Shown here: positions 11,257 to 16,472 of the stretch, piece after piece | Layout of the letters: the number at the start of each line of letters is the position of its first letter | How positions within the stretch are numbered: the stretch's first letter is position 1 | Source of the DNA: Candidatus Spongiisociaceae bacterium | Lineage (GTDB): Bacteria; Actinomycetota; Acidimicrobiia; Spongiisociales; Spongiisociaceae | Reading direction: 5' to 3' | Length of the DNA stretch: 64,000 bases | Assembly: GCA_965202665.1 (NCBI GenBank) | Contig: OZ241841.1 | Location: forward strand, 2,016,001-2,080,000 | Notes under the pieces: generated by a model | The model's input: only the letters and a program-made list of their open reading frames with translations | Database searches by the model: none | Told to the model about the DNA's origin: nothing | Program-made: the position numbers and the translations under genes

Positions 11257-14200
11257 GTGCGCGAGCTGTTCGATGAACTGAAAATTGGTTTGGCGTCCTC
11301 CGATCAGGTGCGGTCCTGGTCGTTCGGGGAGGTGAAGAAGCCGGAGACCATCAACTACCGCAGCTTGAAGCCGGAGAAGGACGGGCTGTTCGACGAGCGC
11401 ATTTTCGGTCCGCAGAAGGACTGGGAATGCTACTGCGGCAAATACAAGCGTTTTCGCTACCGGGGCATCGTGTGCGAAAAATGCGGCGTGGAGGTGACCC
11501 GCAAGGATGTGCGCCGGGATCGGATGGGCCACATCGACCTGGCCGCCCCGGTCACCCATATCTGGTTTTTCAAAGGAGTCCCCTCCCGGTTGGGGTATCT
11601 GCTGGACATGTCCCCCAAAAACCTGGAGATGATCATCTACTTTGCGGCCTACGTGATCACGGAAGTGGACGAAGGCAAACGGATGGTGGATCTGCCCGAC
11701 CTGGAGGAGCAGATGCGGGCCGAGTTGGAAATTGTGGGGGAGGAGTTGGAGGAGTGGCGGTTGGAGCGGCTGTCCCGGTTGGAGAAGCAGGTGGAGCAGA
11801 TGGAGGAGGCGGGGGCCAAGCTGGCGGAGGTGGCCACCGTGCGCCGCGAGGCGGAGCGGGAAATCAAGGATCGGGAGGAGAAAGCGGAGAAGGAACGCGA
11901 GTTGATCAAGGAGAGTTTTGCGGAATTTCGCGAGTTGCGTCCCAAAGATCTGGTGGAGCGGGAGGATTTGTGGAGGGAGATGCACGAACGCTACTCGGCC
12001 TACTTCGATGGGGGAATGGGGGCGGAGGCGGTGAAGAAATTGCTGTCCAAGGTGGATTTGGACGCCGAGATGGAGGAGTTGCGGGAAGGTTTGCAATCAT
12101 CGTCGGCGCAACGGAAACTGCGCTCCGGGCAACGTGTGAAGGTGGTGAAGCCCTTCTGGGAGGGCAAGCATTCGCCGGAGAGCATGATTATAGAGGCGGT
12201 TCCGGTCATCCCGCCTGAGTTGCGACCCATGGTGCAGTTGGACGGGGGGCGCTTCGCCACCTCCGACCTGAATGACCTGTACCGGCGGGTGATTAACCGC
12301 AACAATCGCCTGAAGCGGCTGTTGGGGTTGAACGCCCCCGAGATCATCATCAACAACGAGAAGCGCATGTTGCAGGAGGCGGTGGACGCCCTGTTCGACA
12401 ACGGGCGGCGGGGGCGGGCGGTGCCCGGTACCGGCAATCGTCCCTTGAAGTCTTTGACCGACATGTTGAAGGGCAAAGCGGGGCGGTTCCGGCAGAACCT
12501 GCTGGGGAAGCGAGTGGATTATTCCGGCCGGTCGGTGATCGTGGTGGGCCCGCAGTTGAAGTTGCATCAGTGCGGTTTGCCCAAGGTGATGGCGTTGGAG
12601 TTGTTCAAGCCGTTCGTGATGAAGCGGCTGGTGGACCGGGATTTGGCGGCCGGCATCAAGGCGGCCAAGCGGATGGTGGAGCGGCAACGTCCGCAGGTGT
12701 GGGACGTGTTGCGGGAGGTGATACAGGATCATCCGGTGTTGCTCAACCGGGCCCCCACTTTGCACCGGCTGGGGATTCAAGCTTTCGAACCGTTGCTGGT
12801 GGAAGGCAAAGCCATACAGATTCATCCCCTGGTGTGCGAGGCTTTCAACGCCGACTTCGACGGGGATCAGATGGCGGTGCATCTCCCCTTGTCTCCGGAG
12901 GCGCAGGCCGAGGCGCGGGTGCTGATGCTGTCCACCAACAACGTACGTTCCCCGGCCAGCGGCCATCCCATCGTGTCCCCCTCCCAGGACATGGTCATCG
13001 GCCTCTACTACCTGTCGGCGAATATCAAAAAAGAAGGCGCCTTGGGGACAGGCCGGTACTTTGCCGATCTGCCGGAGGCGTTGATGGCCTATGACTTGGG
13101 TGAGTTGGAAGTGCACGCCCCGATCAAAATTCGGATGGGCGATATGGCGGGCGACCCGCAGGTGCACGCCGAGCTGAAGGATCTGATCGGGTATCTGATC
13201 ACCGACCAACCGGTGGATGGCCAGGTTCCGATGGACACCACTTTGGGCAAGGCCTTACTCAACCAAGCCCTGCCCGCCGATTTCCCGTTGATCGACGCTC
13301 CTTTGTTGAAGAGCGGCATCAAAGACCTGCTCGCTGAGATCATCGACCGCTACGACAAGGCGGTGGTGCAACGCACTCTGGACGGGCTCAAGGATTTGGG
13401 TTTCGCCTTTTCCACCCAGGCGGGGCTCACCGTGGGTTTGAACGATGTGACCACCCCGCTCGACAAGCCGAAGATACTTAACGAGGCGGAGGACAGGGCG
13501 CAGAAGAAGGAACGAGAGTACCAGCAGGGGAGCATTACCGCCCAGGAACGGGATCAGGAGTTAGTGGAGATTTGGAGCGAAGCCACCGAAGAGTTAACCC
13601 AGAAGGTGCGCACTTCCCTGTCCGATCAGGACTTCAACCCCATTGATATGATGATGAGCTCCGGCGCCCGGGGCAACATCATGCAGGTGCGCCAGATAGC
13701 CGGTATTCGCGGCTTGGTGGCTAACAACCGCGGACGCATCATCCCCCGGCCCATCAGGTCTAATTTCCGAGAGGGGATGACTGTGCTGGAGTATTTCATG
13801 TCCACGCACGGGGCCCGCAAAGGTCTGACCGACACCGCTCTGAAAACCGCCGACGCTGGTTATCTGACCCGCCGCCTGGTGGATGTGTCCCAAGAGATTA
13901 TCGTCTCCGAAGAGGAATCGGAGGATCGGGGCATCGACATCCGCGTACGGGATGCAAAAGGCGATACCCTCCCCGACTTGCGCAACCGCATCTACGGGCG
14001 GGTGTTGGCCGAAGATGTGAAAGTGGATTACAAGTTGCGTATCACCCGCCCCGGTGATTCCAACTTCGAAGCTGGCCAAACCGTGGAGTTCACGAAGTTT
14101 GCGTCCGTCAAACGGGAGTTGTTGGAGGCTGGCAAAAAACCGGCCGAAGGTCGGCCGACGGGAGGTAAAACGGCCCTTACCAAGGATGGCGTGGCTCTGG

Positions 14201-16113
14201 AGGCGGGGGCGGTGATTGACCGCAAGGTGATGGTGGAACTGCAGGCTATGCCGGAAGTCGACTCGGTGCGGGTGCGTTCCCCGCTCACCGACGAGATCCG
14301 GCACGGCATCAGCCGCGCTTCCTACGGGCTGAGCATGTCCACCAACCAACTGGCGGAACCGGGCGAGGCGGTGGGGGTGATGGCCGCCCAGTCCATCGGC
14401 GAGCCGGGCACGCAGCTGACCATGCGCACCTTTCATACCGGGGGGGTGGCCGATGAAACGGATATCACCCACGGCCTGCCCCGGGTGGTGGAGTTGTTCG
14501 AAGCCCGCTCCCCCAAGGGAAAGGCCATCTTGGCCGAGGCCAGCGGAAAAGTGCGCATTGACGATGGTGAAGAGGGGGTGCGCGCTTTGGTAATCGAATC
14601 CCCCCGGAGCGGGGAAGTCAAATACCGCTTGTCCCCCAACGCCCGGTTGCGGCCCGGGGTGCGAGAGGGGGGTGAAGTCGCCGCCGGAGATCAACTTACC
14701 GAAGGGCCGTTGGATCCCAAAGAGGTGTGCCTCATCAGAGGAGTGCGGGCCTGTCAGCAGTATCTGGTGGATCAGGTGCAGGATGTGTACCGCAACCAGG
14801 GGGTGGAGATTCACGACAAGCACATCGAGCTGATCGTGCGGCAGATGTTGCGCAAAGTGCGCATCATCGAGCCCAACGACACCGATTTTCTGCCCATGCA
14901 GATGGTGGATCAGGGAGAGTTCCGGGACACCAACCGGGAGTTGGCGGCCGCGGGCAAGCAACCGGCCGAGGGCCGTCCGGAGCTGATGGGGATCACCAAG
15001 GCCTCGCTGGCTACCGAGTCCTGGTTGTCGGCCGCATCCTTCCAGGAAACCAGCCGCGTGCTCACCGAGGCGGCCATCAACGGACGCTCCGACTACCTGC
15101 GGGGACTGAAGGAGAACGTGATCATCGGCAAGCTGATTCCGGCCGGCACCGGTTCCGATGAATACCAGAAACTCCAACCCGAGCTGTCCCAGGCGCAGAT
15201 AACACCCCCCTTGACCGGAGCCGACTGGTTGGCCGTGCGGGAGATGGAAGTATTCACCGAAGAGGTCGCCGGTGAGGCCGAGGATAAGGCCGCCCAAGCC
15301 GAGGAGGCCCGGGCCAGGGCGGAGGAGAAAAAGGCGGAGGTGAACGCCGCCACTGACGATGCCGAGAAATATACTTTGAGGAGGGAAAGAGACGAAGAAT
15401 ATGAACGGGCCGCCCGCTATGACCGGGAGGCGGCCGAGGAGGAGGAGCGGGCCGCGGCCCGCAAGTTGGCCCATGCCCAAGCGAAGGCGGAGGAGGCCGA
15501 GGAAGCCGAAGCGGCCGCCCAGGAGAAAGAGTTGGAACAGGCTCGCAAAGAGGCGGAAAAGGCCCGGCAAGCGGTGGAGAAGGCCCGGGAGAAGGAAGAC
15601 AAGGCCGCCAAAACGCGCCGGGAGAGGGCCGCCAAAGAGGCGCAAAAATGGAAGGATCGGGCACAGCGGGCATTGCGAGAGGCCGAAGGGAAGCAGAAGC
15701 AGGTGGCTGATAAAACGGAGCAGGCTAAAGCCGCGCTGGATATAAGCGCAAAGGTGGATTTGGCGCGGCAGGTCGTGTCTGAATCCGAGAAGGTGATCCA
15801 AGGCGTACGGGAAGCGAGGAAAGCGGCAACGGTAGCCCAGGAGGCTGAAGTTAAGGCTGAGCTGGAAGATACAGAAGCGCCGCAGGTAATAGAGGACGCC
15901 GAACAGGTGATCCTAGATGTGGAGCAAAAGGTTCAGGAGTTGCGGGCCTCGCTGGATGCTCCCCAACAGGATGCGGGAGCTATTGACAGATCCCTCGACG
16001 AGAACCGCGAGTCCTTGACGAGGATGGCCGTTACCTTGCAGAAGTTCACCGACTGGTTGAAAAAAATCGGCGAGCTCGTCGCCGATGCCCTAAAGAAACT
16101 GCTGGGAGGGTAA
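11257..16113 (+). CDS. rpoC: RNA polymerase beta' subunit with a long C-terminal extension (1618 aa)
   Basis: N-terminal Zn finger CYCGK..CEKC, catalytic [23 protein letters not shown], and [14 protein letters not shown] ending at aa 1299; AAAGGAG RBS with GTG start. Confidence 0.99.
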
Positions 16114-16115
16114 GA

Positions 16116-16472
16116 TTGTCGTACGGGGAATCTCTTAACCCGCTTCAGCTTTTTGGGGCGGCGCCCTTCGCTGGCCACGAGGGCAATCCGGCGGACTTCT
16201 CCCGTACGCTTAACGCTGTTCGGATTGGCGTTTCATGGAAGGGTCCTTTCAGTGATGCCATACAACTCATCGAGGCCGCTACTAAGTTGCCCGTGACGGC
16301 CGGCGGGGAGTTGGAGGGGCATATGGCGATCGCGGCGGGGAAAGCCATCGAGGCGGTAATGGGGCAAGTCTTTGAACTGCAGGCGGAGGCGCGCCGGTGC
16401 TTTTCTGCGGAGGCCATCGCCCATGCCGAGCGATGGCTGGCGGAAAACAGCCCCGCTGGAAACGGACGATGA
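16116..16472 (+). CDS. Hypothetical protein (118 aa) immediately after rpoC
   Basis: TTG start 2 nt after the rpoC stop with GGGAGG RBS inside the rpoC tail; globular composition; fills the gap before the rpsL promoter. Confidence 0.6.
   Translation: MSYGESLNPLQLFGAAPFAGHEGNPADFSRTLNAVRIGVSWKGPFSDAIQLIEAATKLPVTAGGELEGHMAIAAGKAIEAVMGQVFELQAEARRCFSAEAIAHAERWLAENSPAGNGR

What the first reader, a model, noticed from the sequence alone, without database searches (positions are those of the whole stretch)
14032..14157. Internal 42-aa duplication: a downstream beta' module is copied into the region after the bridge helix
Seen: aa 926-967 [42 protein letters not shown] aligns without gaps to aa 1200-1241 (nt 14854-14979) [42 protein letters not shown], with 21/42 identities by hand count. 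The second copy is the canonical segment after [12 protein letters not shown]; the first interrupts the GRVLAEDV loop. Inference: an old, retained duplication giving RNAP an extra surface module, a lineage-specific insertion I do not recognise.
Basis: partly seen in the sequence, partly recalled or inferred. Interest (0 to 1): 0.7.

Follow-up and report, generated by a model that had tools for sequence, protein, structure and literature searches.

The report
RNA polymerase copied its own mini-domain
In one genus of sponge-associated Acidimicrobiia, the largest RNA polymerase subunit carries a second copy of one of its own 42-residue mini-domains in a different surface loop, gained once in that genus's ancestor and predicted to fold like the original, which shows that this enzyme still gains such inserts late in evolution, although the copy is likely a tolerated appendage rather than a proven new function.

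Summary
Confirmed. RpoC aa 926-967 (14032-14157) matches aa 1200-1241 (14854-14979) at 21/42 without gaps, far above chance; a profile built without inserts finds it at E=2.7e-9. The module is β'-bD7, the 'small left claw' (sLC) of PMC11515920, inserted (net 45 aa) into a hairpin of β'-bD5. It is not ancient: carriers form one clade (100/100) nested among non-carriers of the same family, which a sister genome's title names Ca. Spongiisociaceae. All 42 covering cluster members keep it at the same length, contigs from four studies span it, and AlphaFold gives it the original's fold. Extra sLC copies are a known kind; I found others in bD4, nested in bD7 and in RpoB, and this scan earlier reported sLC arrays in Poribacteria on other DNA. 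This site and lineage are not in what I could read, and the event cuts against that paper's 'cessation of insertions'. The exact donor is unresolved and function is untested; best guess is a folded, tolerated surface appendage.

The parts
11257..16113 (+). rpoC, RNA polymerase β' subunit, 1618 aa, intact
   Evidence: TIGR02386 1635.8 bits, cut-off 963.5
14032..14157 (+). inserted extra sLC (β'-bD7-type) module, aa 926-967
14158..14166 (+). about 3-residue linker that makes the net insertion 45 aa; the exact edges are uncertain by a few residues
   Evidence: alignment
13897..14277 (+). host domain β'-bD5 (BEAN), about aa 881-1007 including the insert; the insert sits in the hairpin after GRVLAEDV
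   Evidence: domain limits transferred approximately from Table 2 of PMC11515920
14854..14979 (+). canonical β'-bD7 (sLC), aa 1200-1241, the likely source, 822 bp downstream of the copy
   Evidence: E. coli β' 1266-1298, Vibrio 1262-1299, B. subtilis 1077-1118; M. tuberculosis chain 1161-1210

Best explanation
The 42 residues are an in-frame second copy of the β'-bD7 'small left claw' mini-domain, likely copied from this lineage's own rpoC into a surface hairpin of β'-bD5 in one event on the stem of this genus, where it is predicted to fold as a separate small domain and likely persists as a tolerated appendage. Shown: homology to bD7, the site, fixed length in all carriers, restriction to one clade nested in the family, only two copies in the genome. 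Predicted: same strand-strand-helix-strand fold. Inferred: (1) copying by an illegitimate recombination or template switch between two rpoC copies, with no mobile element; (2) the module suits loop tips because bD7 is itself an insertional domain; (3) the Leu-Pro pair that is invariant in canonical bD7 of this class turned polar because it no longer packs on the enzyme body, while a new invariant Phe945 and Tyr925 likely seat the copy on bD5; (4) selection acts mainly on keeping it folded inside an essential protein.
For: Homology. One gain: 6 carriers form a clade (100/100) whose sister is 16 non-carrier family members (100/98), 1 change on a 38-row tree built without the insert columns; 2 of 30 loci carry it; 21 of 233 distinct bD5 segments have the long form, all from the four carrier clusters or G000/G001. 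Retention: 42 of 43 listed cluster members cover the site and all 42 have the same 83-residue spacing; dN/dS 0.25 for the insert between G000 and G001 against 0.18-0.20 for neighbouring surface regions. Fold: in the 450-residue model, with only 2 of 57 rows covering the insert, it has elements E77-82, E93-95, H96-108, E115-119 at block pLDDT 88-96, matching E351-356, E367-369, H370-382, E389-393 of the canonical copy; folded alone, its best structural matches are bD7 of solved β' chains (Z 5.3 and 5.2, rmsd 2.8-2.9, 50 aligned). Own-lineage donor: inserts are most identical to their own genus's bD7 (mean 19.5-21.0 of 42 against 12.1-13.3 for nested copies), share Gln16 with 21 of 21 family sequences and the E-G-R end with the class, and fall inside the class in the 151-row tree (SH-aLRT 97). 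Docking face: position 13 is Leu in 91 of 91 canonical sequences of the class but never Leu in 5 inserts, 3 bD4 copies or 21 nested copies. Faster drift: 16 distinct inserts among 40 read against 7 distinct canonical copies among 43. The hairpin tolerates inserts: an unrelated ~40-residue insert lies there in L049.
Against: The donor is not resolved: AU tests rejected none of five groupings (p 0.28-0.48), including inserts with nested or bD4 copies; two inserts score best against other orders of the class, and Gly8/Gly15 are class-like, not family-like; profile scores from different groups lie within a few bits. No loss or length change in any carrier and 13 invariant positions, among them the new Phe, fit an acquired function equally well. 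dN/dS rests on one genome pair and 42 codons, and the canonical copy gives a noisy 0.49. The stand-alone model is weak (pLDDT 62, no Foldseek match at E<=0.001). No junction signature supports any copying route.
Confidence: 0.6

Rival explanations
1. [quoted passage not shown]
For: [quoted passage not shown]
Against: The insert drifts faster than the original and slightly faster than its flanks; no conserved basic patch (net charge -1 to +4); similar copies turn up at unrelated sites in unrelated lineages, which fits tolerance better than one function.
Confidence: 0.25
2. The module came from another bacterium's rpoC (most likely another acidimicrobian in the same sponge), or from an already mobile sLC copy, rather than from this gene.
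For: Gly8 and Gly15 match other orders of the class (46 of 46) and not the family; the best single match of the window's insert is a class-level sequence (24/42, L137); AU tests do not reject grouping with other extra copies.
Against: Gln16 and Arg6 are family features, mean identity is highest to the own genus; the same glycines are seen in most extra copies and may be returns to the fold's preferred turn; no closer donor was found among 1140 candidates; a rough bD2-type profile scores the inserts at 0.9 bits or less.
Confidence: 0.15
3. An old insertion inherited from deep ancestors and lost in most relatives (the first reader's 'old' reading, and the timing that PMC11515920 favours for such inserts).
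For: The two copies are only 50% identical with near-saturated synonymous sites; the inserts sit on a long stem (0.7-0.9).
Against: It would need precise loss in every surrounding lineage; no other genome with this insert among 401 of the order and 401 of the class (overlapping draws); the insert carries class- and family-specific residues.
Confidence: 0.03
4. Assembly artefact or recent accidental duplication.
For: Some two-copy proteins in the representative search look like repeated rpoC stretches from bad assembly (P0038, P0039, P0132).
Against: Copies differ at 52 of 126 bases; single contigs from four runs of four studies cross the insert with no gaps; four protein clusters down to 78% identity carry it.
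Confidence: 0.005

Closest known systems
β'-bD7 / sLC ('small left claw'), CATH 3.30.60.280 (Alvarez-Carreño et al. 2024, PMC11515920; whole main text and Table S4 read, figures and supplementary PDF not seen)
   Same: Same sequence family, length and predicted fold; that paper already reports sLC domains among the rare inserts in β'-bD2, bD4, bD5 and bD7, and lists the second half of bD5 as an insertion site.
   Different: Its 16 listed rare variants are all DST-group, Bacillota or Mycoplasmatota; none is an actinobacterium. It places the insertions in deep time, speaks of cessation in late-diverging groups and leaves the mechanism open. Here the event is genus-level and the module still carries its lineage's residues.
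Nested sLC-in-sLC insert in β'-bD7 (site vii of PMC11515920; 21 examples taken; that these are Planctomycetota is recalled, no call named them)
   Same: A second bD7-like copy in the same subunit, with the same loss of Leu13.
   Different: Lies inside the source domain, as a tandem-like duplication would; this one is 274 residues upstream in another domain.
sLC-like copies at the start of β'-bD4: three genomes of genus g215 (relatives named Ca. Solincola/Geothermincolales) and Oscillospiraceae/Ruminococcaceae proteins
   Same: Non-tandem extra copy of the same module in a surface loop of β'; the g215 case is also recent (3 of 10 genomes of one genus).
   Different: Other site, other lineages, no E-G-R end; they do not group with this insert in either best tree, though that grouping is not rejected.
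sLC arrays in Poribacteria RpoB/RpoC
   Same: Self-derived sLC module copied into surface loops of RNA polymerase in a sponge symbiont.
   Different: Reported as bD2 (clamp toe)-derived and multi-copy; this is one bD7-type copy.
Lineage-specific β' inserts of Lane and Darst (β'i1-i7), e.g. E. coli β'i6/SI3 (seen only through passages of PMC2939025 and PMC11077087)
   Same: A folded domain inserted in a variable surface region of β'.
   Different: Those are phylum-scale and mostly SBHM/HABAS or BBM/BEAN folds; I could not read the catalogue itself.

Membership tests
sLC, β'-bD7 type | Sequence homology to bD7 by a profile that holds no inserted copy | tested here: met
   37.1 bits, E=2.7e-9 in the genome; 38-47 bits for five inserts alone
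sLC, β'-bD7 type | About 44 residues, colinear with bD7 | tested here: met
   42 residues, no gaps; bD7 is 44 residues in Table 2 of PMC11515920
sLC, β'-bD7 type | Same fold as solved bD7 | tested here: met
   Predicted only: same elements at offset 274; top three VIA matches are β'/β'' bD7 regions, Z 5.3, 5.2, 4.5, rmsd 2.8-2.9, 46-50 aligned; all listed Foldseek rows are β' chains but none reaches E<=0.001
sLC, β'-bD7 type | Leu13-Pro14 and Asp19 as in canonical bD7 of this class | tested here: not met
   Glu/Gln at 13 in 16 of 16 distinct inserts, Glu/Gly at 19; Leu-Pro in 91 of 91 canonical. It is a derived copy, not a second canonical domain
sLC, β'-bD2 (clamp toe) type, as reported for Poribacteria | Closer to bD2 than to bD7 | tested here: not met
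   0.9 bits or less on a rough fixed-window profile of 36 mostly Bacillota bD2 sequences against 38-47 bits on bD7; Poribacteria copies were not in hand
Catalogued rare β' variants (PMC11515920 Table S4, site iv) | Insertion in the second half of β'-bD5 | tested here: inconclusive
   Site is about residue 45 of about 82 of bD5 by approximate transfer of limits; the exact place of site iv is in figures I could not see
Catalogued rare β' variants (PMC11515920 Table S4, site iv) | Lineage listed | tested here: not met
   16 proteins listed, none from Actinomycetota
Catalogued rare β' variants (PMC11515920 Table S4, site iv) | The domain inserted at site iv is an sLC | not testable with these tools
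   Figure 7a and the supplementary PDF are not readable
Lane and Darst β'i1-i7 | Site and taxa match a numbered insert | not testable with these tools
   PMC2813377 and PMC2813324 not held
BEAN or HABAS insertional domains | BEAN bracket fold or HABAS four-stranded sheet with GD-box-like motif | not tested
   No profile of either was run; the insert maps by sequence and fold to bD7
Dispersed coding-region repeat elements (Rickettsia palindromic element type; recalled) | Many copies across the genome | tested here: not met
   Only the two rpoC copies score in G000

The most novel reading that the evidence does not exclude
The sLC mini-domain is a still-active, self-supplied building block of bacterial RNA polymerase: it is copied from its home in β' into other surface loops again and again at genus level or below (here into bD5, in genus g215 into bD4), and in this sponge-symbiont genus the copy has been recruited as a new functional surface on the swivel module. 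This would overturn the view that domain insertion into RNA polymerase stopped early and would give a datable case with a traceable donor.
Probability: 0.25. Interest if true: 0.7.

Novelty: new variant of a known kind. Interest (0 to 1): 0.45.

Why it matters
How RNA polymerase gained its lineage-specific inserts is stated as unclear in the most recent survey I could read (PMC11515920), which infers one early burst and then cessation. A genus-level insert whose source domain is still recognisable 822 bp away in the same gene, plus a second recent event at another site, points to local copying as an ongoing route and gives natural with/without pairs (carrier genus against sister genera; 3 against 7 genomes in genus g215) for testing what a new insert does. 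It also gives a clean marker for the genus. It does not, on present evidence, show a new function.

Tried and rejected
Self-blastp of RpoC reported only the full diagonal, so significance was taken from shuffles, tblastn and profiles. AU tests on 54 rows x 42 columns could not separate donor hypotheses; the 151-row careful tree did not finish and the quick tree was used. A complex prediction of the bD5+insert region with the C-terminal tail gave no answer and is not used either way. Metagenome scan returned only 12 canonical bD7 loci. The genome-contig scan with junction patterns found 1 relative, G001; its patterns are strict. No RNA holder was listed. Atlas search: no usable hit for the tail, none run for the insert. 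Multi-match genomes G026, G368, G396, G399, G437, G468, G189, G226, G237, G253, G831, G854, G876, G941, G1012, G1041, G1050 were set aside: their second matches lie on other contigs or loci or are weak. The A1 screen undercounts: it scored carrier G717 as single-copy. Link to loss of the second zinc site rejected as cause: the cysteines are also missing in non-carrier families. Strict coupling to the full C-terminal tail rejected: 5 of 43 members keep the insert with a shortened tail. No repeat or microhomology was evident by eye at the junctions; not tested formally. Paper searches that found no description of this insert.

Full report
Observation. The window holds an intact rpoB-rpoC-rpsL-rpsG-fusA-tuf region; rpoC is 11257-16113 (+), 1618 aa. 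The score of 101 was not reached in 2000 shuffles (mean 31.6, maximum 50), and tblastn finds the partner at E=1.9e-8 with nothing else under 0.9 in the 2.77-Mb genome. A profile of 158 canonical sequences that holds no inserted copy finds the insert at E=2.7e-9 among 22,503 open frames. Against solved β' chains the alignment breaks exactly here.

It is real and fixed. Against 28 relatives the segment is a net 45-residue insertion, present in 2 of 30 loci, G000 and G001 of the same genus. Four protein clusters at 90% identity carry it; they hold 48 members, 43 were listed, 42 cover the site and all 42 have the same spacing. Single contigs from four runs of four studies cross it without gaps, with 2 to 39 other letters over 610 bases. 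Of 23 runs listed, those with habitat labels among the good holders read sponge or marine metagenome. G001's record title names Ca. Spongiisociaceae; other relatives are named Acidimicrobiia.

Age. On a 38-row tree of 401 columns without the insert, the 6 carriers are one clade (100/100), sister to 16 non-carrier family members (100/98), with three more family lineages outside; one change explains the pattern. The inserts' own branching mirrors that of the canonical copies, as vertical descent from one event would give. Screens with sLC profiles: 352 of 401 genomes of the order matched, 6 had two matches, and only G000 and G001 had both in one gene; 377 of 401 of the class matched, and none of the 11 other multi-match genomes had two in one rpoC. 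The draws overlap, kin are not independent, and the first profile missed at least one known extra copy (G717), so these are 'not found in those searched'. These tallies include eight genomes marked unpublished; no other claim rests on them. The event is thus younger than the family's first splits but older than the genus's deepest split (78% RpoC identity); synonymous sites between the copies are far diverged (pS 0.62 in G000, 0.43 in G001).

Identity of the module. PMC11515920 (whole main text read; Table S4; figures and supplementary PDF not seen) calls this 44-residue insertional domain β'-bD7 or sLC, homologous to β'-bD2, and calls the host β'-bD5 a BEAN domain. The insert profile maps to E. 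coli β' 1266-1298, Vibrio 1262-1299 and B. subtilis 1077-1118 (only the Vibrio match is under E=0.001). AlphaFold on aa 850-1299 gives the insert the same four elements as the canonical copy at offset 274, block pLDDT 88-96, with only 2 of 57 rows covering it. Folded alone from 5 rows the model is weaker (pLDDT 62); its best matches are bD7 regions of β' chains (Z 5.3 and 5.2, rmsd 2.8-2.9, 50 aligned; Foldseek best E=0.048). These Z values are modest for so small a domain.

Donor. The five inserts are on average most identical to their own genus's bD7 (19.5-21.0 of 42), then family, order and class, and least to nested copies (12.1-13.3); they share Gln16 with 21 of 21 family sequences and the E-G-R end with the class. 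Against this, Gly8 and Gly15 are class-like, the window's insert scores best against another order's sequence, and group profiles differ by only a few bits. The 151-row tree puts the inserts inside the class (97) without a closer partner, and AU tests rejected none of five groupings. No closer sequence turned up among 1140 candidates. A bD2 origin scores far worse on a rough profile. Own-gene origin is the simplest reading, not a shown one.

How it likely works. Position 13 is Leu in 91 of 91 canonical sequences of the class and hydrophobic in 61 of 61 others, but never Leu in 5 inserts, 3 bD4 copies or 21 nested copies. I infer that this face packs on the enzyme only at the home site and is exposed in copies; I had no coordinates to test it. 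The inserts keep the fold residues (Phe12, Phe23, Leu30, Gly34) and gained an invariant Phe20. dN/dS between G000 and G001 is 0.25 for the insert, 0.18-0.20 for nearby surface regions, 0.16 for the core and a noisy 0.49 for the canonical copy (one pair). The insert varies more than the original (16 distinct of 40 against 7 of 43). Both sites lie within the range that PMC7749165 calls the β' shelf and jaw in B. subtilis (passages), and the shelf belongs to the swivel module (passages of PMC8940904, PMC11077087, PMC6336406). So an effect on pausing or factor binding is possible but nothing here shows it. I favour a folded, tolerated appendage (0.6) over a recruited surface (0.25).

Recurrence. 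The same module appears as an extra copy elsewhere: at the start of bD4 in 3 of 10 genomes of genus g215 and in none of the other genomes of that family that matched (23 of 24 matched), and in 5 protein clusters whose nearest non-carriers are named Ca. Solincola or Geothermincolales; at the same region in 14 of 150 scanned proteins, two of them named Oscillospiraceae and Ruminococcaceae, at weak scores of 6.5-29.7 bits; nested inside bD7 in at least 21 of the best 150 of 1845 representative hits; and inside a chimeric-looking RpoB (L168). Earlier notes of this scan report bD2-derived arrays in Poribacteria (not checked by me).

Novelty. Inserted sLC copies and insertion in bD5 are both described in PMC11515920, but its 16 rare variants are DST-group, Bacillota or Mycoplasmatota, and it infers cessation of insertion in late-diverging groups with the mechanism unclear; the preprint says the same (passages). 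Searches found no description of this insert; Lane and Darst 2010 could not be read and the unseen figures may show an sLC at site iv. PMC2939025 and PMC12008989 were seen as passages only. Verdict: a real, genus-level new variant of a known kind, useful as a dated counter-example with a nearly traceable donor; function unproven. Interest 0.45.

Noticed in passing
G761:C100:5548-5673 (-) = L086:1591-1716; also L087 (G797), L088 (G717); proteins P0188-P0192: Independent recent sLC-like copy (net 38 aa) at the start of β'-bD4 in 3 of 10 genomes of genus g215; several of these RpoC proteins also carry a PF03118 (alpha-CTD-like) match.
   Followed up: partly
window 15214-16110 (RpoC aa 1320-1618): About 300-residue Ala/Glu/Lys-rich C-terminal extension found in the same carriers; no other copy in the genome; shortened in 5 of 43 members. 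Already reported by earlier notes of this scan.
   Followed up: partly
window about 13915-14325 (RpoC bD5 region): The cysteines of the second β' zinc site are absent here and in all aligned members of families f1 and f2, while other families of the order keep them; 71 of 233 distinct segments have no cysteine.
   Followed up: partly
window 16116-16472: 118-aa open frame between rpoC and the rpsL promoter, no Pfam or NCBIfam match; absent from G001, where the promoter follows rpoC directly.
   Followed up: partly
L168 (G1012:C133:1-2265, - strand): RpoB frame that looks chimeric (actinobacterial start, other-phylum end) and holds an sLC-like copy in the external-1 region.
   Followed up: partly
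P0225-P0231, P0237, P0238, P0219, P0246, P0253, P0289, P0294, P0297: Two different kinds of sLC-like insert at β'-bD4 in Oscillospiraceae/Ruminococcaceae-like RpoC; may be the paper's Oscillibacter variant.
   Followed up: no
L049 (G740:C18:8953-12078): An unrelated ~40-residue insert in the same bD5 hairpin in another order of the class.
   Followed up: no
P0179: 155-residue fragment with three sLC-like copies in a row, context unknown.
   Followed up: no
L003 (G004) and L018 (G013): 23-33-residue inserts next to the trigger loop in two family members.
   Followed up: no
P0106 / L064 (G634): 2004-residue actinobacterial RpoC with about 700 extra residues of repeated jaw-like sequence.
   Followed up: no
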